A stretch of 64,000 bases of DNA. Source: an uncultured bacterium. Lineage in GTDB: Bacteria > Zhuqueibacterota > QNDG01 > CAYUAG01. Location: contig CAZETW010000004.1 in the NCBI GenBank assembly GCA_964515295.1, positions 4,994 through 68,993 of the forward strand. Direction: 5' to 3'. Positions 474-36,671 of this stretch are shown here, in pieces (the first letter of the stretch is position 1; each line of letters opens with the position of its first letter). The notes beneath the pieces were generated by a model that saw nothing but the letters and a program-made list of their open reading frames with translations, was not told the DNA's origin and made no database searches. The translations under genes and the position numbers were made by a program.

Positions 474-1856
474 TCATTTCCCTATACAAAACTCCGAGAA
501 AATATAATCCAAAATATCATCAGTTGTTTTTTTGCCAGAGATTTCGCCTAAGGAATCCAACGCCTGCCTGAGATCAAAGGCAATAAATTCCTGAGACATT
601 TTGTCATTCATTGCTTTCAGGGCATGATAAATATGCTCTCTGGTCCGGAAAACTGCCTGTTTATGACGTTCACGGGTTAAGAGCAGTTCGCCTTCCATGG
701 GTAAATCACCGGAAATAACGGTTTGTTTCAGATTGTTAATAAGCATATCAATACCCTTTTTCTTTAGAGCTGAAATAAGTAAAACTTCTTCTGTATTCAG
801 CAGTTTTTTTAATTCATCAGCTGAAATTTGTTGTTTGAGATCAGATTTGTTGATAACTCCCAGCAGTTTTTTTTGTTGTTTCTGGATTCTGCTTATTATT
901 TTTTTATCTTCACTGCTCAGTGTTTTACTCCCGTCAACCACTAATAAAACAATATCTGCCTCTTTTAGAGTCCTCTCTGCTCTTCTGACCCCTTCTTTTT
1001 CTATAGGATCCTGAACTTCTCTTAACCCCGCAGTATCGATAATAGTAAAAAGAACTCCTTCAATGTCCAGTACATCTTCAATGGTATCTCTGGTAGTGCC
1101 GGCAATTTCAGTAACAATTGCCCTTTCCTTTTCTACCAGGCAATTAAGAATACTTGATTTACCTACATTGGGGCTGCCGATAATAGCCATCCTCACCCCT
1201 TCCCTGCATAATCTGCCTCTTTCATAACTGTCCAGAAATTTTTTTAATTCAGCATCAATTTTTTTTAGCATTTTCTGCAGATCATTTAGGGAAGTAAAGT
1301 GAATGTCTTCTTCTGCAAAATCGAGTTCTAGTTCGAGAAAAGAACAGGCCTGAACCAGCTGTTGGGAAAAATCTGCTAATTTTTCAGACAGATTGCCTTC
1401 CAGCTGATACAGAGCAACTCTTCTGGAAGCTTCTGTTTTGGCATGAATAAGATCAGCAACTGCTTCAGCCTGAGAGAGGTCCATTTTCCCATTCAAAAAA
1501 CTTCTTTTGGTGAATTCACCCGGCTCTGCTAACCGGGCTTTATGTTTAATGATCAGATCCAGAATCCTTTTGGTCACAAACGGTGAACCGTGACAGCTTA
1601 TTTCTGCAATATCTTCACCTGTATATGAATGAGGAGAAAAAAAGAAGGTGATCATTACTCTATCGATTTTTTCTCCATTATCTGTAATCCATCCCTGATA
1701 TACTCTGCGATTCCGAAATGAAGATACTTTTTTATCAGTATAAAAAATTTTTTTAATTATGGGCTGAGATTCCTGACCGCTGATACGAATTACTGCAATT
1801 GCTCCTTCGCCCTGAGGAGTGGATACAGCTGTTATTGTATTGTTATTACTATTCAC
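474..1856 (-). CDS. mnmE: tRNA modification GTPase MnmE (TrmE)
   Basis: 460 aa; G1 motif GSPNVGKSS, DTAG, NKSD, C-terminal CIGK tetrapeptide; conserved context with yidC. Confidence 0.93.
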   Translation of the reverse strand: MNSNNNTITAVSTPQGEGAIAVIRISGQESQPIIKKIFYTDKKVSSFRNRRVYQGWITDNGEKIDRVMITFFFSPHSYTGEDIAEISCHGSPFVTKRILDLIIKHKARLAEPGEFTKRSFLNGKMDLSQAEAVADLIHAKTEASRRVALYQLEGNLSEKLADFSQQLVQACSFLELELDFAEEDIHFTSLNDLQKMLKKIDAELKKFLDSYERGRLCREGVRMAIIGSPNVGKSSILNCLVEKERAIVTEIAGTTRDTIEDVLDIEGVLFTIIDTAGLREVQDPIEKEGVRRAERTLKEADIVLLVVDGSKTLSSEDKKIISRIQKQQKKLLGVINKSDLKQQISADELKKLLNTEEVLLISALKKKGIDMLINNLKQTVISGDLPMEGELLLTRERHKQAVFRTREHIYHALKAMNDKMSQEFIAFDLRQALDSLGEISGKKTTDDILDYIFSEFCIGK

Positions 1857-30177: not shown

Positions 30178-32370
30178 ATGAAGTATCCACACTTAAATAA
30201 AGCGGTGAAAATGAAAAAATATAAAAAGAAGATAATTGATTTTTTTGATAAACATGCAAAAGAAATTTTCAAAAGAAGAACTTTGGCCAAACGTCTGCAT
30301 ATTCCTAATAAACATTATCAGGATTTTAAGCGATTGCTGGATGCATTAGTTGATCAGGGAATTATTCAGCGGCATAAAGGTCATCGGTACGGAAAAATGA
30401 GACGTGATAATATTGTCAGCGGCACTTTGGAGGTTAAAACTGAAGGGTTTGGATTTTTAAAGAGAGATGACGGGGGCGAAGATATATTCATCAGTCAGCG
30501 CAATATGGGGCCGGCTCTGCATAAGGACAGAGTACAGGTAAATTTATGGGCAGTACCCAAACATAAAGGAAAACTCTGTGAAGGAAGAGTACTTAAGGTA
30601 TTAGAACGATATCATAAACGAATTGTGGGCACCTTTACAGAAGGAGAAAAATTGCACTATGTTATTCCTGATGATTTAAAAATCAGTAATGATATTCTTA
30701 TAACTGAAGATAACAGGGCACAGGCCAAACCCGGACAGAAAGTTGTGGTGAAGCTTGAACCTAAAAAAGACACCAGAGAGCCCTTACAAGGCAGAATTGT
30801 TGCCATACTTGGCTATCCTGAAGATAAAGGCGTCGATATAGATTCTATCATATATGATATGGGGATCCGTTTCTCCTTTCCGGATTCGGTAAAAAAAGAA
30901 GCTGAGAAAATAACCGGAGAAATTTCAGAAGCAGAGTATGAGGAGCGTCTGGATTTACGGGGAAAACTGATATTTACCATAGATCCTGATGATGCCGAAG
31001 ATTTTGATGATGCAGTCTCTCTGGAGAGACTGGATAACGGCAATTTTTTATTAGGTGTTCACATAGCAGATGTAAGTCATTGGGTGCAGGTAAACTCCGA
31101 CATCGATCAGGAGGCTCTGGAAAGAGGGAACAGTGTATATCTGGTCGACAGGGTAATCCCCATGCTGCCGGAACAGATTTCCAATCATGTTTGCAGTTTA
31201 CGGCAGGGAGAAGACAGCCTTTGTTACAGTGTTTTAATGGAAGTAAATTCCAATGGAGAAGTGATTGATTATGATTTTAAAGAAAGTATAATAAACAGCA
31301 GATTCAGGTTTTCCTATAAAGAAGTGCAGAATATACTGGATGAACTCCATAAGAAGAATAACGAAACTGTTCAGAAAAACGGAACTGACTATTCAGATAT
31401 TTTAAAGAAAACTATTAATGATATGTATAACTTGAATATGACCTTAAAAGATAAATGGCGCCAGTATGGATTAATAGATTTTACCACCCTGGAACCTGAT
31501 GTGATGCTGGATGCTAATGGAAAACCGTATGATATAAAAGCCCGGGATTCTCTTGAAAGCAATGAAATTATTGAAAGTTTCATGCTTCTGGCCAACAGAA
31601 CTGTAGCTGAGCATATTAAAAAAATCAGAGAAACCCGGGAAGGTAAATTTCCTTTTGTGTATCGTATTCATGAGAAGCCGGACAGGGAAAAAATAACAGA
31701 ACTGAGAAGGTTTGTTGAGGTTTTGGGGTATGAATTTAATGTGGGTAATAGAGTGAAATCGAAAAATTTTCAGCGTCTTATCCAGCAGGTTAAAGGAACC
31801 GATCATGAATATCTGGTAGAAAACATTGCTCTCAGGAGTATGATGAGGGCCAAATATTCCAAAGCCAACCCGGGGCATTTTGGTCTGGGATTTACTCACT
31901 ATACTCATTTTACTTCCCCTATAAGGCGGTTTGCAGATCTTACTGTACACAGGCTGTTAAAATGTTACGGCAGTGATGTTGATGCTCCTCCTGCCCTTCC
32001 TGCTTCTCTTTCTGAAATTTGTAAAATTACCACAGAGTGCGAAATAACTGCGGAAGCTGCAGAAAGAGAATCCATCAAGGCCAAACAGGTGCAGTTCATG
32101 GCCAATAAAATAGGACAGGAGTTTTCCGGAATAATTTCCGGTATTGTTCCCTTTGGATTATTTGTAGAAATTCCGGAATATCTTATTGACGGGCTGATTG
32201 CCATCCGAGATCTGCATGATGATTACTATGTGCATGATGAGGAGCATTACTGTTTGATCGGAGAAAAACGGGGCAGAACTTTCCGTATCGGTGATCCGGT
32301 CAGGGTCAGACTGAAAAGAGTTTTGCTGCAGATGCGGAAGATTGATTTTGATATTGTGTATGAGGAGTGA
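30178..32370 (+). CDS. rnr: Ribonuclease R
   Basis: 730 aa; N-terminal HTH/cold-shock, RNB catalytic domain (DPDDAEDFDDAVS, VYLVDRVIPMLPE), C-terminal S1. Confidence 0.9.
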   Translation: MKYPHLNKAVKMKKYKKKIIDFFDKHAKEIFKRRTLAKRLHIPNKHYQDFKRLLDALVDQGIIQRHKGHRYGKMRRDNIVSGTLEVKTEGFGFLKRDDGGEDIFISQRNMGPALHKDRVQVNLWAVPKHKGKLCEGRVLKVLERYHKRIVGTFTEGEKLHYVIPDDLKISNDILITEDNRAQAKPGQKVVVKLEPKKDTREPLQGRIVAILGYPEDKGVDIDSIIYDMGIRFSFPDSVKKEAEKITGEISEAEYEERLDLRGKLIFTIDPDDAEDFDDAVSLERLDNGNFLLGVHIADVSHWVQVNSDIDQEALERGNSVYLVDRVIPMLPEQISNHVCSLRQGEDSLCYSVLMEVNSNGEVIDYDFKESIINSRFRFSYKEVQNILDELHKKNNETVQKNGTDYSDILKKTINDMYNLNMTLKDKWRQYGLIDFTTLEPDVMLDANGKPYDIKARDSLESNEIIESFMLLANRTVAEHIKKIRETREGKFPFVYRIHEKPDREKITELRRFVEVLGYEFNVGNRVKSKNFQRLIQQVKGTDHEYLVENIALRSMMRAKYSKANPGHFGLGFTHYTHFTSPIRRFADLTVHRLLKCYGSDVDAPPALPASLSEICKITTECEITAEAAERESIKAKQVQFMANKIGQEFSGIISGIVPFGLFVEIPEYLIDGLIAIRDLHDDYYVHDEEHYCLIGEKRGRTFRIGDPVRVRLKRVLLQMRKIDFDIVYEE

Positions 32371-32374
32371 GTAT

Positions 32375-32600
32375 CGTGTAATATGTGGGAAGGCTGGGAG
32401 GAGAAAAAAAGGAGGATGGATGAGACCCCAACAAGGTATGAAGCCACAAAGAGTAAATTAAATAACAAATTATTTAATATTGACCAGTGTATCGTGGTAT
32501 GGGAGTGTCGGAGAAAGAAAATGGAGATGGGTTGTTTTTAAATCCCAAATCCCAAGCATCAAACAAAAAATAATAACCAAATTCCAAATATCAATGGCCA
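32375..32600 (+). repeat. Interspersed/tandem non-coding repeat family, copy A (two sub-copies)
   Basis: GTATCGTG..TGGGAG..GGAGAAAGAAAA..GGAG occurs twice about 115 bp apart; core GGGTTGTTTTTAAATCCCAAATCCCAAGCATCAAAC matches copy B at 36208. Confidence 0.6.
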
Positions 32601-32923
32601 AACTGATCAGCTTACAAACCTGTTCAAAAATTTAAAGCCATGGATGCACCCCGTTGGATAAACGTGTTTCAAAATATAAAACTTGCAACTGCTTAAAACA
32701 TCCTACGGGGTGAACACGGATCAAACACGGAATAATATTATTGTTATCCGTGAGAATACGTGTTAATCCGTGACTGATAAATTTATCATTAATAATTGTT
32801 TATTGTTTTTGTTCTTTTGTCCGATTCCAATATCGTTACTTTTACATTAGTATTTCCTCGGACATCCGGGTGTGGCCATTTTTACATAGTCTCAATGGCT
32901 GGGAATAAAGTGATTACAAATCA

Positions 32924-32956
32924 CAAAAAAATGCCGAAGGTGGGGGCACCTTCGGC
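32924..32956 (-). terminator. Rho-independent terminator of the M16 peptidase gene
   Basis: 10-bp perfect stem GCCGAAGGTG/CACCTTCGGC with GGGG loop, followed on minus strand by T7 run. Confidence 0.8.
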
Positions 32957-33015
32957 ATTAACAGTTTCTTAGCAATGATCTTTTATCGTAATAAGAAAAT
33001 GTATCACATTACTGG

Positions 33016-36006
33016 CTACTTCTCCAGCTTAATGATTTCTCCGAACAGATCTTTTTGCGCTTTTATTATTTCTTCATTTCCATATACACAATAAATATTC
33101 TGTTTCAGTATGTCCTGAACAAAGGACTTCATATTCTGTATATCTTCAGGTGTGGTTTTTAGGACATTATCACGTTCTGTTTGAATATCTTTTCTGGTTA
33201 CGTTTTCCAGATACCAGGAAACAGCCTGATCTCCTTCTCCTGAAGGTGTTAATGGTCTGTCCATGTTGGAGATGGTGCCGATTATGAATCGTGTCATAAG
33301 GTCTTTTTCCGGTTTAAAATTCTGTAGAAATTCAGGTGTATTTTTAAAGTTTTCCAGAGTTTCCTTGAGATTCGGGTCACGATAAGAGCCGAAAAATACC
33401 TGACCGGTAGGAGCAAAGTTGCTGAAACCGCCATATGCTCCCCCTATAACCCTGATCTGTTTATGCAGCCATTCCCGGGAAAGAATTTGATTCAACACTC
33501 TGATTTTACCGTTCCAATCATATCCCAGATCTTTAAAATCATATCCCTGCAGAACATACTGAACTTTCGAGGCAGTTGCTATACCTTCATTGTTCTTTTT
33601 AAAAGAAAAATCCCAGCTGTATTTTTGCAGATCATCCTGAGATAAGGATTGTGCAAATGTTTCAGTTTCTTTTTTGAATGCAGAAAAATCATCTTTATCA
33701 CAGGTTACTGCCACAATGAGATTATTTTTATTAAACAAAGTGGTTGTGGCTTTTTCCATATTACTGATGATTTCATCTGCTTTCTGATCATAATTATCAA
33801 CTAAATCAGTGATAAACCAATAGTATTCCAGTCCTCTGGTGAGTTCATTGAACATTCCCTGATTGGAATAATAGGATGTAAGTCTGGTAAGAGCATATCC
33901 CATCCCGTTTCCTTTTACACTGGCATCCAGTCTGGATTGATGTCTGGTTAACACTGTTTTTAATCGATCCTTGTCATTAAACACAGAACGGTTCAGAATT
34001 TCATTGGTTAATTCAAAAAGTTTATTCACTTTAGCATTCATCGCTTTGGATGAAATTATAAGTGTGGATATCATTTGCTCATCACTTCTGTTTTTAAGAT
34101 AAGTATTCAGATAAGTGTTAAATCCGCCGGTATGGATATTCAGGGCGTTATCCAGATCGCCATAGGAATATTTTTCTGTATTCAGGCTTCCAAGCACTTC
34201 GGTTAATAGAGCAGCATAGGGTATCATTTCCTGGGAAAGCACCCGGGTATCAAAAAGAAATTTGATATAGACAATATCGTTGGTAAAGGCATCATAATAT
34301 AAAACAGGGGTATCTCCGAGCTTTTTTTCTGAAACCTTATACCAGGATGCCTTTGGGTTGATATCGTTTATTTCCAATCTGGGTATGGTAGCAAGTGCTT
34401 CAGGTGAATCTTCTCTTTCCTGAAATTCAATTAATTTCTGCGTATTTTTTATCAATTGTTCTTTTTCTTTCCGGGAAAGACTGTTCTTATACGCGGTTAG
34501 TTCGGTTTTAATTTGTTCATTTATCTTGCTCTCCAGTCCTGGTTTTGGTTTTAAGGTGAATAACAGGGAGTGAGAATTATTCAGCATATGTTCTTCAATA
34601 ATTGCTCCCAGCAGTCTTGTTTCCAGTGCAGTTTTTACTATTTCCAGTGGTTCTTCCCACTCAAGACTCAGGAACGGATCGCCGGTATAAAGCCATCCTT
34701 TACTTGCGTTAAAAAGATATACCAATCCTTTATGGGGAGTGTTGCCTTCCCGGAGGCGGAATTCCATTCTGTTGATAATACCTTCTATGGTTTCTTTATC
34801 CAGGCCTTTTTCTGCTGTCTCTTTCAGTGTTTTCATAACAGTTGATTTAAACTTATCTGTATCAGAAGGATCAGCATTCTGCACCCTGATCTGGAATACA
34901 TTCTGTTTCTGTTCACTGCTGTAGGCTCTGACTTCACGGCCTATTCCGGCTTTCTGCAGAGCCAGACGGACAGGAGCTGATTCATGATTTACCAGAGCTT
35001 CACTTAATATATCCAGAGCCATACATAAATCCCGGTCTCTGCCTTCTCCGATCACCCAGCTTAACGATAAATATGTCTGGTTATCGGTTCTGCTGCCTAC
35101 AGGTACAGGATAGTAACCAGATGCCTCTTTCATCTGTTTAAAAGGTTTCTGAAATGTTATAGAAGCAATATCATCTGACTTCTCATACTGGGACAGGTAT
35201 TTTTCATCAATAAAAGAAAGTTCCTTATCCAGATCAGCATTTCCGTAAAGAAATATATAACTGTTGGAAGGATGGTAGTATTTCCGGTGAAAATCAAGAA
35301 ATTGTTCATAGGTCAGTTCCGGAATAGCTGGCGGATAACCGCCGGAGGACTTACCATAACAGTTATCAGGAAACAGGATTTTATCTATCTGAAAGCCCAG
35401 CTCTCTGGTGGCGCTGGAAAAAGCACCTTTCATTTCATTGTATACCACTCCTCTGTATTCAACCGGTAGGTCCATATCTTTTAATTCATAATGCCAGCCT
35501 TCCTGTTTAAAAATGCGGGGGTCATCATAGATGCGCGGTTTTAATACAGCATCCAGATAAACGTGCATAAGATTGAAAAAGTCTTTATCATTCATGCTCG
35601 CCACCGGATACATGGTAAAATCACTCCCGGTCATAGCATTGAGAAATGTATTCAGTGATCCCTTGGTCAGTACATCAAAAGGGCTTTTGACCGGAAAATT
35701 TTCAGAACCGTTTAATACAGAATGTTCCATAATGTGAGGGGTTCCGCAGTCGGTTTCAGGTGTGGTTTTGAAAGCGATACAGAATGTTTTGTTGGGGTCG
35801 TCCGCTGCGATTTTGAGCAGCCGGGCTCCGCTTTTTACATGTTCGAAATAGTAACAGTCAGCATTCACTTCTTTTACAAAACGTTTTTCAATCAGTTTAA
35901 ATCCATGATAGGTCGAGTCTGTTTTGTACTTGTCGGTCTGACAGGAAAAAAATGAGAAAATAACAACAAGAATGAGCAGATGAGTAATGATTTTTTTGAT
36001 TTTCAT
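33016..36006 (-). CDS. M16 family zinc metallopeptidase (insulinase/pitrilysin-like), predicted lipoprotein
   Basis: 996 aa; lipobox signal (IFSFFSC), inverted zinc motif HIMEH, two M16 halves. Confidence 0.85.
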   Translation of the reverse strand: MKIKKIITHLLILVVIFSFFSCQTDKYKTDSTYHGFKLIEKRFVKEVNADCYYFEHVKSGARLLKIAADDPNKTFCIAFKTTPETDCGTPHIMEHSVLNGSENFPVKSPFDVLTKGSLNTFLNAMTGSDFTMYPVASMNDKDFFNLMHVYLDAVLKPRIYDDPRIFKQEGWHYELKDMDLPVEYRGVVYNEMKGAFSSATRELGFQIDKILFPDNCYGKSSGGYPPAIPELTYEQFLDFHRKYYHPSNSYIFLYGNADLDKELSFIDEKYLSQYEKSDDIASITFQKPFKQMKEASGYYPVPVGSRTDNQTYLSLSWVIGEGRDRDLCMALDILSEALVNHESAPVRLALQKAGIGREVRAYSSEQKQNVFQIRVQNADPSDTDKFKSTVMKTLKETAEKGLDKETIEGIINRMEFRLREGNTPHKGLVYLFNASKGWLYTGDPFLSLEWEEPLEIVKTALETRLLGAIIEEHMLNNSHSLLFTLKPKPGLESKINEQIKTELTAYKNSLSRKEKEQLIKNTQKLIEFQEREDSPEALATIPRLEINDINPKASWYKVSEKKLGDTPVLYYDAFTNDIVYIKFLFDTRVLSQEMIPYAALLTEVLGSLNTEKYSYGDLDNALNIHTGGFNTYLNTYLKNRSDEQMISTLIISSKAMNAKVNKLFELTNEILNRSVFNDKDRLKTVLTRHQSRLDASVKGNGMGYALTRLTSYYSNQGMFNELTRGLEYYWFITDLVDNYDQKADEIISNMEKATTTLFNKNNLIVAVTCDKDDFSAFKKETETFAQSLSQDDLQKYSWDFSFKKNNEGIATASKVQYVLQGYDFKDLGYDWNGKIRVLNQILSREWLHKQIRVIGGAYGGFSNFAPTGQVFFGSYRDPNLKETLENFKNTPEFLQNFKPEKDLMTRFIIGTISNMDRPLTPSGEGDQAVSWYLENVTRKDIQTERDNVLKTTPEDIQNMKSFVQDILKQNIYCVYGNEEIIKAQKDLFGEIIKLEK

Positions 36007-36195
36007 GATTACCTCCTTTAGTGATTGATTTTTTTACTAAAAATTTATATACAAACATATAAGATATATAATGTACGTAAATGAAATGTTTTTGTTGCAT
36101 TTTTATAAAACTTGATTTATAAATAAATTGTCAAGTAATCAGGACTAATTAACATTACGCTCATTCTCCTCTTGAGGGGGAACCATCGGCGTAAC

Positions 36196-36280
36196 CCGGG
36201 AAAGAAAAGGGGTGTCTTGAAACCCCGAATCCCAGGCACCAAATCTAACTAAACCCCAAATAAAAAATACCAAACAACAA
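36196..36280 (+). repeat. Interspersed non-coding repeat family, copy B
   Basis: GGGAAAGAAAAGGGGTGTCTTGAAACCCCGAATCCCAGGCACCAAAT is about 80% identical to copy A core, same orientation. Confidence 0.6.
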
Positions 36281-36551
36281 TTGTACAAAAATCTATATAT
36301 AAATATATTAAAAATCCTTTGGATACAGGATTATGGACTGCATTATTCGGATTTGCATTGTTTACCGGATCATTATATAATCTCATTATTGCAGCAGAAT
36401 TTGTTCTGGTAATGATACCTCATATATGGCTGGAAAACAGGCCAATTCAGCTATCAAAAAAGCAGTGAGCTCATTATGGCAGACTTTGCACATGAGTATG
36501 TGCATAGAACAATACAGATCAATTGAATTTCATAAAAAAATTAAAAAAATC

Positions 36552-36580
36552 TTGACTTTCTTAATTATTTTTGTAAATTA
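36552..36580 (+). promoter_or_regulatory. Candidate sigma70 promoter for tRNA-Asn (TTGACT-16 nt-TAAATT)
   Basis: Near-consensus -35 TTGACT read directly, about 40 nt upstream of tRNA. Confidence 0.4.
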
Positions 36581-36595
36581 TTATCTCTGTATAAA

Positions 36596-36667
36596 TCCGG
36601 AGTAGCTCAATGGTAGAGCGGGTGGCTGTTAACCACTAGGTTGGGGGTTCAAGTCCCTCCTCCGGAG
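36596..36667 (+). tRNA. tRNA-Asn (anticodon GUU)
   Basis: Hand-folded cloverleaf: acceptor TCCGGAG/CTCCGGA, anticodon loop CTGTTAA, T-arm GGGGGTTCAAGTCCCTC. Confidence 0.85.
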
Positions 36668-36671
36668 CTTT

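What the first reader, a model, noticed from the sequence alone, without database searches (positions are those of the whole stretch)
32375..36290. About 100-bp non-coding repeat family in direct orientation on both sides of the M16 lipoprotein peptidase gene
A sequence block at 32503-32600 (core GGGTTGTTTTTAAATCCCAAATCCCAAGCATCAAAC ... AAAAAATAATAACCAAA) recurs at 36196-36280 (GGGGTGTCTTGAAACCCCGAATCCCAGGCACCAAAT ... AAAAAATACCAAACAA) with about 80% identity in the same orientation. Copy A is itself internally duplicated: GTATCGTG-TGGGA-GGAGAAA-GGAG at 32375 and again at 32490. The two copies bracket the 3-kb peptidase gene with its strong terminator. This is compatible with a recombination or insertion footprint, a MITE-like element, or a family of small RNA or regulatory elements.
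Basis: seen in the sequence. Interest (0 to 1): 0.5.

Follow-up and report, generated by a model that had tools for sequence, protein, structure and literature searches.

The report
Orphan arms of heptad hairpin repeats
The two similar non-coding blocks on either side of the peptidase gene are real, but they are most likely leftover half-copies of a hairpin-forming repeat built from 7-base words, a repeat found in many bacterial and archaeal genomes, and not the ends of a mobile peptidase cassette.

Summary
Window 32509-32595 and 36197-36281 align far above chance (score 41 against 24.7±2.9 in shuffles, 0/500). Both lie on the + strand. The claimed internal duplication of copy A is only marginal (23/500 shuffles).

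The shared core (AAAYCCCRAATCCCARGCAYCAA) is not specific to this genome. It matches at least 119 stretches in MAGs labelled as more than 10 phyla, from 34 to 73% GC, including Planctomycetota, Desulfobacterota, CPR and ANME-1 archaea. There it is usually one arm of a long inverted repeat built from 7-nt words (lag-7 self-match 0.53).

Arms of the same frame bracket PF05635 genes ('23S rRNA intervening-sequence protein', Avd-like) wedged between co-directional neighbouring genes. That is the layout of rRNA intervening sequences.

Neither window copy has a partner arm, a significant fold, an Rfam match or a PF05635 remnant. Copy A belongs to a repeat mosaic that also follows rnr in relatives. 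Copy B ends exactly where a PEMT gene is cut at codon 116. The M16-PEMT block was moved as a unit, and its edges are not at the repeats.

Verdict: orphan, probably inert arms in a spacer prone to rearrangement. The wider repeat family seems undescribed and is the more interesting result.

The parts
30178..32370 (+). rnr (RNase R) gene. This is the last gene of a block that keeps its order in relatives. Copy A lies in the spacer after it.
   Evidence: Pfam RNB, CSD2, OB_RNB and S1. The gene order upstream of rnr is conserved in L124-L127.
32372..32420 (+). Purine-rich module 1 (GTATCGTG...GGGAGGAGAAAAAAAGGAGGATGG).
   Evidence: Read in the sequence. Similar GGAG/GGAA runs precede the CA arm in L002, L124, L126 and L058. 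The pairwise duplication statistic is marginal.
32490..32536 (+). Purine-rich module 2 (GTATCGTGG...GGAGAAAGAAAATGGAGATGGG). Its 3' part is shared with copy B.
   Evidence: The alignment with 36197-36216 is part of the significant A/B alignment.
32537..32606 (+). Copy A2: a C/A-rich array of 7-nt words (AAATCCC AAATCCC AAGCATC ... CCAAATTCCAAATATCAATGGCCAAAC). It is an orphan arm with no partner.
   Evidence: nhmmer profile of 126 arms from other genomes hits 32540-32601 (E 9.4e-7). A profile of the inner arm only, which excludes the search pattern, has its best window hit at 32577-32602 (E 0.055). TRF finds period 7. Lag-7 self-match is 0.56. No inverted partner above chance.
32704..32772 (+). 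Complete hairpin built from the word CACGGA/TCCGTG. It is a different word flavour in the same mosaic.
   Evidence: Inverted repeats. RNA fold -28.3 kcal/mol, z -3.84, 1/200 shuffles. 77% identical to L002 8097-8162. AATCCGTG words recur in L126, L002 and L172.
32791..32819 (+). G/T-rich 7-nt array (ATTGTTT x2.9). It is a possible decayed partner of A2, but the pairing is not above chance.
   Evidence: TRF. The inverted match to A2 scores 21 against 18.0±2.6, reached by 84/500 shuffles.
32930..32959 (-). Intrinsic terminator of the M16 gene.
   Evidence: 13-bp stem with 7 GC pairs, followed by a T run. Conserved in L002.
33016..36006 (-). M16C/PreP-type peptidase gene (996 aa), lying between the two copies.
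   Evidence: Pfam M16C_assoc, PreP_C and Peptidase_M16_C. Orthologues of 91%, 77% and 69% identity lie in other genomic contexts.
36197..36282 (+). Copy B: a short purine run, a small GGGGT..ACCCC stem, and a C/A-rich 7-nt-word array (AAACCCCGAATCCCAGGCACCAAAT...ATACCAAACAACAATT). It is an orphan arm.
   Evidence: A/B alignment. nhmmer hit 36220-36246 (E 0.0012). No partner arm. Folds are not significant.
36283..36468 (+). 3' remnant of a PEMT-family gene (codons 116-171 of 171). It starts exactly where copy B ends.
   Evidence: tblastn: 87% identity to the L127 PEMT and 78% to the L002 PEMT, residues 116-170. About 80% nucleotide identity to L002 and L003.
36596..36668 (+). tRNA-Asn (GTT), on the right-hand side of the rearranged segment.
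   Evidence: ARAGORN and Rfam.

Best explanation
The two blocks are orphan, partly decayed C/A-strand arms of an inverted-repeat family built from 7-nt words. The frame is AAATnnn AAATnnn AAnnnnn AAATnnn AAACAAAT.

In intact members, a C/A-rich arm and its G/T-rich complement lie 10-400 nt apart and can pair into a stem of about 30-60 bp. The stem encloses either a short variable loop or a PF05635 gene ('23S rRNA intervening-sequence protein', Avd-like four-helix bundle). These units sit in spacers between neighbouring genes that run in the same direction. That is the layout of rRNA intervening sequences, whose stem is cut by RNase III. By inference, the stem lets the insert be looped out or cut out at the RNA level, so the host transcript tolerates it.

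In this window neither copy has a partner arm, so no stem can form. The copies are most likely inert relics.
- Copy A belongs to a mosaic of such word modules that already followed rnr before this lineage split from its relatives.
- Copy B marks the junction at which the first 115 codons of the PEMT gene next to M16 were lost.

That the two copies lie on either side of the peptidase gene is a by-product of rearrangement in a repeat-rich spacer. They are not the ends of a mobile unit.

Shown: the repeat, its family, the missing partners, the PEMT truncation and the differences in gene order. Inferred: the RNA-level role of the stem, that the window copies are inert, and how the family spreads.
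For: The repeat is real.

Family:
My own composition-blind estimate of the chance expectation is about 2.
- The matching genomes span 34-73% GC.
- In the 119 loci nhmmer finds 171 arms, of which 34 form convergent pairs.
- Lag-7 self-match is 0.53 in the family, 0.56 in A2 and 0.42 in B.
- Non-circular link: a profile of the inner arm only, built from other phyla, has its best hit in the whole window at 32577-32602, directly next to the core.
- The window's own lineage has an intact hairpin (L002 9690-9796) and further arms (L058, L124).

Cassette link:
- The ORF enclosed by the arms in L062 is PF05635 (E 4.9e-14).
- Inverted arms flank PF05635 genes in 5 of 6 loci tested.
- These genes lie between co-directional neighbours: a VWA gene and moxR, a PSD gene and an HXXSHH gene, a PSD1 gene and a DUF1501 gene.
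- N-terminal extensions of some called PF05635 proteins look like translated C/A-rich word arrays (my reading of the protein sequences).
- Between cassettes the words differ, but each cassette keeps its own pairing: 6/10, 4/9 and 8/13 differing positions are compensated.
- rRNA intervening sequences have a stem of terminal inverted repeats plus an S23p ORF and are excised by RNase III (PMC4990558). PF05635 resembles the DGR protein Avd (PMC10053308).

Orphan status: no partner arm, no significant fold, no PF05635 remnant, no Rfam family.

History:
- A mosaic with the same order of modules follows rnr in L124 and L126.
- The PEMT remnant starts at 36283, directly after copy B.
- M16 and PEMT are adjacent in L002 and L003.
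Against: - The search pattern was derived from the window copies, so their match to the family core is partly circular. The non-circular inner-arm hit is weak (10.5 bits, E 0.055), and copy B has none.
- No PF05635 gene was seen in about 150 kb of this lineage.
- Most exact-core hits elsewhere carry no such gene either: 5 of 119 loci do.
- The core of copy A is kept at about 80% (my reading of the alignment) at the same place after rnr in L124, while the rest of the spacer cannot be aligned. This could mean that a solo arm has a function of its own.
- 'Inert' is an inference from missing features, not from expression data.
- Taxon labels are the MAG record titles and were not verified.
Confidence: 0.6

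Rival explanations
1. Recombination or insertion footprint. The peptidase segment entered (or can leave) by recombination between two copies of the repeat, so the direct repeats are the ends of the moved unit.
For: The copies are in direct orientation on both sides of M16. The context of M16 differs in every relative, and M16 is absent between PEMT and Exo_endo_phos in L127. L124 has a single arm after rnr and no M16 there. Copy B sits exactly at a breakpoint.
Against: M16 and PEMT are ancestral neighbours (L002, L003). Copy B lies between them, so it is inside the moved block; the right edge of the block must lie beyond the PEMT remnant. The right flank in L124 (a TPR gene on the - strand) does not match the window either. 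31/40 identity with nearby gaps is a poor substrate for homologous recombination (established knowledge of the length and identity needs of RecA).
Confidence: 0.12
2. Functional cis element or small RNA of this lineage, for example a C/A-rich 3'-UTR or leader element bound by a protein, or a purine-rich GGA module acting as a protein sponge.
For: The core is retained at the same position after rnr in L124 although the rest of the spacer has diverged. Heptamer repeats elsewhere have been proposed as binding sites of post-transcriptional regulators (PMC4679880). The - strand of copy B has a terminator-like hairpin followed by a T run.
Against: No Rfam match. Folds are not better than shuffles. 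Promoter-like and terminator-like sites are not above expectation (18 against 15.4, and 4 against 3.1). The two copies lie in unrelated contexts (after rnr; inside a broken gene). The sequences look degenerate: 5 of the 9 core mismatches are transitions, and there are many gaps.
Confidence: 0.12
3. Classical MITE: a non-autonomous DNA transposon with terminal inverted repeats, moved by a transposase encoded elsewhere. The window copies would be broken ends.
For: The family has inverted arms, many copies per genome, no ORF in most copies, and nested insertions.
Against: No target-site duplication is visible at the junctions I read. The arms come in different word flavours that change together on both sides. 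This fits a need for a stem better than recognition of one fixed end sequence. No transposase was seen nearby; the only recurrent cargo is PF05635, which is not a known transposase.
Confidence: 0.1
4. Independent slippage products: unrelated low-complexity C/A-rich 7-mer runs that resemble each other by chance or by a shared mutational bias.
For: Heptanucleotide repeats are the commonest class of long simple repeats in bacteria, and polymerase slippage has been proposed as the cause (PMC4679880, citing Mrazek 2007). The A1/A2 similarity is marginal.
Against: The order AAATCCC-AAATCCC-AAGCACC is not a simple tandem array, yet it is exact in at least 119 stretches, including genomes of 70% GC. 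The A/B alignment beats all 500 shuffles. The inner-arm match falls at the correct offset.
Confidence: 0.06

Closest known systems
23S rRNA intervening sequences (IVS) carrying an S23p/PF05635 ORF (Leptospira, Coxiella)
   Same: Complementary terminal arms form a long stem around a PF05635 ORF or around no ORF. The GC content is lower than that of the host. The distribution across taxa is patchy, which suggests horizontal transfer (PMC4990558). [quoted passage not shown]
   Different: The elements found here lie in spacers between protein-coding genes, not in rRNA helices. Their arms are arrays of 7-nt words. RNase III cleavage was not tested. The window copies have neither a stem nor an ORF.
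Intergenic heptanucleotide repeats: cyanobacterial STRR, TAACTGA repeats of Beggiatoaceae, Cyanobacteria and Bacteroidetes, and Geobacter heptanucleotide multicopy elements
   Same: A 7-nt word unit, intergenic location, mixing of several word types in one spacer, presence in distant phyla with no known means of transfer (PMC4679880), and multicopy families of four or five heptamers (PMC2700814).
   Different: Those repeats are mostly direct tandem arrays of a single word. Here the array is a fixed order of different words (ATCCCAA, ATCCCAA, GCACCAA ...), used as one arm of an inverted repeat and linked to PF05635 cassettes.
REP/BIME elements of enterobacteria
   Same: Extragenic palindromic units combined with other short motifs into mosaics, and located in co-directional or convergent spacers (rough count here: 42 co-directional, 13 convergent, 6 divergent).
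   Different: REP units are 20-40 nt, GC-rich and linked to RAYT transposases (my knowledge). No RAYT was looked for or seen here. The stems here are longer and AT-rich whatever the host GC content.
MITEs (for example Correia, Nezha)
   Same: Short ORF-less copies with inverted ends, many per genome, some nested in one another.
   Different: No target-site duplications and no cognate transposase were seen. The end sequences vary by compensated changes.

Membership tests
Heptad-word inverted-repeat family (the CCCAAAT flavour defined here) | Core AAAYCCCRAATCCCARGCAYCAA followed by a C/A-rich extension with 7-nt periodicity | tested here: met
   Both copies match the core. Lag-7 self-match is 0.56 and 0.42. 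The profile hits have E 9.4e-7 and 1.2e-3. This is partly circular, because the pattern came from these copies.
Heptad-word inverted-repeat family (the CCCAAAT flavour defined here) | Inner arm end of the form ..AAATTCCAAT..CAATGACCAAAAC at the right offset from the core | tested here: inconclusive
   A2: the best hit in the window is at 32577-32602, but it scores only 10.5 bits (E 0.055). B: no hit.
Heptad-word inverted-repeat family (the CCCAAAT flavour defined here) | A complementary G/T-rich partner arm within about 400 nt, forming a stem | tested here: not met
   There is no reverse-strand profile hit in the window. Inverted alignments are at chance level. Hence the copies are 'orphan arms', not complete members.
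IVS-type PF05635 cassette | A PF05635 ORF between the arms | tested here: not met
   No PF05635-like ORF or remnant was found in the spacers, the window or the lineage loci. The feature is met elsewhere in the family (L062, L173, L177, L185, L109).
IVS-type PF05635 cassette | Excision of the stem by RNase III at the RNA level | not testable with these tools
   [quoted passage not shown] It is known for the Coxiella IVS (PMC4990558).
IVS-type PF05635 cassette | Location inside an rRNA helix | tested here: not met
   The window copies lie after rnr and upstream of M16. No rRNA match was found in the window or in L062.
MITE | Terminal inverted repeats flanked by a target-site duplication | tested here: not met
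   The window copies have no inverted partner. No duplications are visible at the intact hairpins I read. This was inspected by eye only, not in a systematic survey.
MITE | A cognate transposase encoded in the same genomes | not tested
REP/BIME | Short extragenic palindromes in mosaic combination with other motifs | tested here: met
   Mosaics of purine-rich, GTGCCTAA, CCCAAAT and ATCCGTG modules occur in the window and in L002, L124 and L126. This is a resemblance in architecture only.
REP/BIME | Association with a RAYT (tyrosine transposase) and a GTAG-type REP consensus | not tested
   No genome-wide search was possible.
Structured small RNA or riboswitch (Rfam) | A match to a curated covariance model, or a fold better than shuffles | tested here: not met
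   Nothing reached a gathering score, and E-value scans gave only chance-level matches. Fold z-scores are -1.4, -0.8 and -0.4.
Intrinsic terminator | A GC-rich stem followed by a T run, downstream of a gene on the same strand | tested here: inconclusive
   The - strand of copy B (36226-36209) fits the consensus, but only 4 such sites were found against 3.1 expected. No - strand gene lies upstream of it.

The most novel reading that the evidence does not exclude
PF05635 (Avd-like four-helix-bundle) genes with arms of 7-nt words, together with their ORF-less hairpin derivatives, form one class of selfish 'intervening-sequence-like' cassettes found across bacteria and archaea. They settle in transcribed spacers (between genes of an operon, after tRNA genes, inside rRNA). 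They are tolerated because the arm stem is removed or looped out at the RNA level. The arms are kept identical across species while the loop content turns over (L075 against L080). The window's two blocks would be fossils of such cassettes.
Probability: 0.3. Interest if true: 0.75.

Novelty: new variant of a known kind. Interest (0 to 1): 0.5.

Why it matters
For this window the result is modest. The repeats are relics. They explain a truncated PEMT gene and a local break in gene order, and they show that the peptidase gene is not a repeat-bounded cassette.

The wider result is more useful. One exact 22-nt core, in a fixed order of 7-nt words, recurs in genomes labelled from Planctomycetota to ANME-1 archaea. 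It forms long stems whose arms stay identical between species while the loops are replaced. It has the same frame as the arms around PF05635 genes inserted between co-directional neighbouring genes.

This gives a concrete, testable handle on two old loose ends:
- why heptanucleotide repeats appear in unrelated phyla.

It also matters for annotation. These arms produce spurious ORFs (peptides such as MGFGIWDLGF and NPKSQ). They may also contribute to contig breaks: the L126 contig ends inside such a mosaic.

Tried and rejected
- Phage vector: the core pattern hit 44 IMG/VR contigs, but all are one conserved coding gene of low-GC phages (peptide ..IDAWDLGF..), unrelated to the hairpins. Rejected.
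- Lineage census by metagenome scan: the inner-arm pattern found a single hit (L172, a hairpin in the spacer after an ORF ending at 2815 and before one starting at 2946; my reading of the translations is argG and leuS). Too few for a census.
- Partner arm for A2 at 32791-32819: at chance level.
- PF05635 remnant in the spacers: none by blastx or profile search.
- Other mosaic sites in the window (AATCCGTG and purine-rich pattern hits at about 4.4 kb and 58.7 kb): on reading, these look like coding sequence and are not part of such a mosaic.
- Gene-context classification with naive ORFs: unreliable in high-GC genomes, where 54 of 133 elements were scored 'inside an ORF'. I use only the rough ratio of 42 co-directional, 13 convergent and 6 divergent.
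- Strictly anchored hairpin extraction for a formal covariation count: only 11 elements, all of one flavour. I replaced it with a hand comparison of three cassettes.
- Literature search for the exact sequence: 0 papers.
- CsrA-type sponge reading of the GGA-rich modules: considered from memory only, with no supporting test. Not pursued.

Full report
**1. What is in the window.**
- The finding spans two non-coding spacers around a peptidase gene.
- rnr (RNase R, 30178-32370, +) is followed by a 645-nt spacer (IGR_A, 32371-33015).
- Next come an M16C/PreP-type peptidase gene on the - strand (33016-36006) and a 589-nt spacer (IGR_B, 36007-36595).
- tRNA-Asn (36596-36668, +) and a TPR gene follow.
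- The peptidase has a strong terminator on the - strand at 32959-32930.

**2. Is the repeat real?**
- Yes. The best local alignment between the two spacers is 32509-32595 against 36197-36281. It scores 41, against 24.7±2.9 in 500 dinucleotide shuffles, and none of the shuffles reaches it.
- The ungapped core has 31/40 identical bases.
- Both copies are on the + strand. A degenerate 24-mer of the core occurs twice in the window and never in shuffles.
- The proposed internal duplication of copy A rests on a purine-rich run and is marginal (23 of 500 shuffles score as well).

**3. The core is not specific to this genome.**
My own composition-blind estimate of the chance expectation is about 2.
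- All the records are MAGs. Their titles name Planctomycetota (several Fimbriiglobus and Gemmataceae bins, many copies each), Desulfobacterota, Verrucomicrobiota, Chloroflexota, Acidobacteriota/Aminicenantes, CPR groups, Omnitrophota, WOR-3, Bacteroidota and Methanophagales (ANME-1) archaea. I did not verify these labels.
- Locus GC content ranges from 0.34 to 0.73, while the element stays AT-rich.
- The matches extend well beyond the pattern. The consensus is AAATCCCAAATCCCAAGCACCAAAT(T/C)CCAAACAAATTCCAA...CAATGACCAAAAC.
- In many loci the reverse complement follows 10-100 nt later, giving a long hairpin. nhmmer found 171 arms in the 119 loci, including 34 convergent pairs.
- The arms have a 7-nt period: lag-7 self-match is 0.53, against about 0.2-0.28 at lags 3-5 and 9-12.
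- No Rfam family matches. Only sub-threshold miRNA-like hairpin hits appear.
- A literature search for the sequence found nothing.
- The 44 hits in viral contigs are all one coding gene and are unrelated.

**4. What intact members look like.**
- In two Fimbriiglobus MAGs with orthologous flanks (87.6% identical over 4.2 kb), the hairpin sits in the spacer between two co-directional genes. On my reading of the translations these are an acrA-like and an acrB-like gene.
- Both 33-nt arms are identical between the two species, but the loops (53 and 60 nt) cannot be aligned in either orientation.
- In Desulfobacterota the element is a conserved unit of about 230 nt. It occurs in several families and sometimes carries a nested GC-rich mini-hairpin.
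- A rough context count gives 42 co-directional, 13 convergent and 6 divergent spacers. The ORF calling behind this count is crude.

**5. Link to PF05635 cassettes.**
- In L062 the two arms lie 394 nt apart and enclose a 120-aa ORF. [quoted passage not shown]
- Five of the 119 loci hold such a gene or a fragment of one, in every case within about 800 nt of an arm.
- Going the other way, I looked up three PF05635 homologues. Each lies between co-directional neighbours: a VWA gene and moxR, a PSD gene and an HXXSHH gene, a PSD1 gene and a DUF1501 gene.
- Five of six PF05635 genes tested are flanked by inverted arms far above chance. For example, 36 nt scores 57 against 17.1±2.6.
- The arms share one frame, with flavour-specific triplets:
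  - AAATCCC AAATCCC AAGCATC AAATTCC AAACAAAT
  - AAATACG AAATCCG AATATCG AAATACG AAACAAAT
  - AAATGAC AAATTAC AAAAGAC AAATTAC AAACAAAT
- Where two cassettes differ, each tends to keep its own pairing: 6/10, 4/9 and 8/13 positions are compensated. This argues that the stem matters, and not one fixed recognition sequence.
- The arms in L109 use TGCCTAAAATGTCTAAA. The same word makes up the GTGCCTAA module in the window's relatives.
- Some called PF05635 proteins have N-terminal extensions that look like translated C/A-rich word arrays (for example KFQIRSTKPQTNSKSKEPMTET; my reading).
- Published work describes rRNA intervening sequences as a stem of terminal inverted repeats around an S23p ORF. 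They are excised by RNase III, have lower GC than the host, and are suspected of horizontal transfer (PMC4990558).
- PF05635 resembles the DGR accessory protein Avd (PMC10053308). Such genes have been noted between cmr3 and cmr2 (PMC3936711) and in rRNA inserts of CPR bacteria (bioRxiv 10.1101/2024.02.27.582315).
- Intergenic heptamer repeats shared by distant phyla with no known means of transfer have been described for TAACTGA (PMC4679880). Heptanucleotide multicopy elements have been described in Geobacter (PMC2700814).

**6. Where the window copies fit.**
- A profile built from 126 arms of other genomes hits the window only at 32540-32601 (E 9.4e-7) and 36220-36246 (E 1.2e-3). Both hits are on the + strand, and there is no reverse-strand arm.
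- Because the pattern came from these copies, I also built a profile from the inner arm part only, using other phyla. Its best hit in the whole window is 32577-32602 (CCAAATTCCAAATATCAATGGCCAAA). That is exactly adjacent to the core, but the hit is weak (E 0.055). Copy B has no such hit.
- Inverted-repeat searches around both copies are at chance level.
- The folds are not better than shuffles (z -1.4, -0.8, -0.4).
- No PF05635 remnant or gene exists in the spacers, in the window or in about 150 kb of related loci.
- The lineage does have an intact hairpin (L002 9690-9796) and further arms (L058, L124).
- IGR_A also contains a complete hairpin of another word flavour (CACGGA/TCCGTG, 32704-32772, z -3.84).
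- The window copies are therefore orphan arms inside a mosaic of word modules.

**7. History of the locus.**
- The gene order upstream of rnr is conserved in relatives with 88%, 85% and 78% identical RNase R. The order downstream is different in each.
- The spacer after rnr in L124 and L126 has the same order of modules: a purine-rich run, a GTGCCTAA hairpin, a C/A-rich arm, then other words. Copy A is therefore inherited at this position.
- The peptidase gene has orthologues of 91% and 77% identity that lie divergently next to an intact 171-codon PEMT gene (L002, L003).
- In L127, PEMT and the next gene are adjacent with no M16 gene between them.
- In the window, 36283-36447 encodes PEMT residues 116-170 (87% identical to L127). 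Copy B ends at 36282.
- Copy B therefore marks the loss of the 5' two-thirds of PEMT, and it lies inside the M16-PEMT block. The repeats do not delimit the segment that moved.
- An independent Logan assembly of SRR7048218 has both spacers at 100% identity. It may rest on the same reads.

**8. Interpretation.**
- Best explanation (confidence 0.6): the blocks are orphan, decaying arms of a heptad-word inverted-repeat family whose intact members form long stems around a variable loop or a PF05635 gene.
- By analogy with rRNA intervening sequences, the stem probably lets the insert be looped out or cut out of the host transcript. This step is an inference.
- In the window no stem can form. The copies are most likely inert, and they mark a repeat-rich spacer that is prone to rearrangement.
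- Rivals:
  - a recombination footprint bounding the peptidase (0.12);
  - a functional cis element or small RNA (0.12);
  - a classical MITE (0.10);
  - convergent slippage products (0.06).

**9. Novelty and score.**
- The window feature itself is ordinary: fossil repeats.
- The family it belongs to combines known themes: heptanucleotide intergenic repeats, IVS-type stems, and REP/BIME-like mosaics.
- I could not find a description of this combination in Rfam 15 or in the searchable literature. I therefore rate it a new variant of a known kind, with interest 0.5.

Noticed in passing
window 36283-36468 (+): Truncated PEMT-family gene. Only codons 116-171 remain (87% aa identity to the intact gene in L127). 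The frame stays open upstream into the repeat, and no start codon lies at the original position.
   Followed up: yes
window 32704-32772 (+): A complete hairpin made of CACGGA/TCCGTG words (z -3.84), 77% identical to a segment downstream of the M16 gene in relative L002. AATCCGTG words recur next to the C/A-rich arms in L126, L002, L058 and L172.
   Followed up: partly
L075 1866-1980 and L080 5167-5288: Orthologous hairpins in two Fimbriiglobus MAGs. The arms are 100% identical, the loops are unrelated, and the flanking genes are 87.6% identical. No mechanism is known to me.
   Followed up: partly
L173, L177, L185 (PF05635 genes at 1501-1875, 1501-1863 and 1501-1869): PF05635 genes inserted in the same orientation between co-directional neighbouring genes (a VWA gene and moxR; a PSD gene and an HXXSHH gene; a PSD1 gene and a DUF1501 gene). 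Each is flanked by inverted arms of 7-nt words in a different word flavour.
   Followed up: partly
L127 14303-15860 compared with L002 4387-9405: The M16 gene is present between PEMT and Exo_endo_phos in one relative and absent in another. In L127 the TerB-S9-PEMT block lies only 2-5 kb downstream of rnr.
   Followed up: partly
L128-L171 (viral contigs): The 22-nt core also occurs, by coding conservation, in one gene family of low-GC phages (peptide ..IDAWDLGF..). It is unrelated to the hairpins and is a trap for pattern searches.
   Followed up: yes
L006, L029, L057, L084 (Desulfobacterota copies): A GC-rich mini-hairpin of about 40 nt (CCCTTCGAC..GGCTCAGGGTGGTGAGCTTGTCGAACC) is nested inside the G/T-rich arm in some copies and absent from others. 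It looks like a second small repeat family that inserts into the first.
   Followed up: no
L034 5009-5066 (-): Two tandem copies of the core lie inside the predicted N-terminus of an ORF (MKNPKSQASNYKEIPNPKHQIIKW...), just before a stretch that looks like a signal peptide. Either the start codon is miscalled or the repeat is tolerated in coding sequence.
   Followed up: no
window 32383-32541 (+): A 52-aa ORF called by a public gene caller on the Logan contig lies on the purine-rich modules and has no Pfam match. It is probably spurious.
   Followed up: partly
L126 9176-9944: The contig ends 770 nt after rnr, inside a mosaic of word hairpins (CACGAAG, ATCCGTG and purine-rich runs). Such mosaics may contribute to assembly breaks.
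   Followed up: no
L044, about 40 nt upstream of the core at 636-657 (-): In a Methanophagales MAG the arm starts a few bases after a sequence that looks like a tRNA 3' end (GGTTCGAATCCTGCCTCCCGCA).
   Followed up: no
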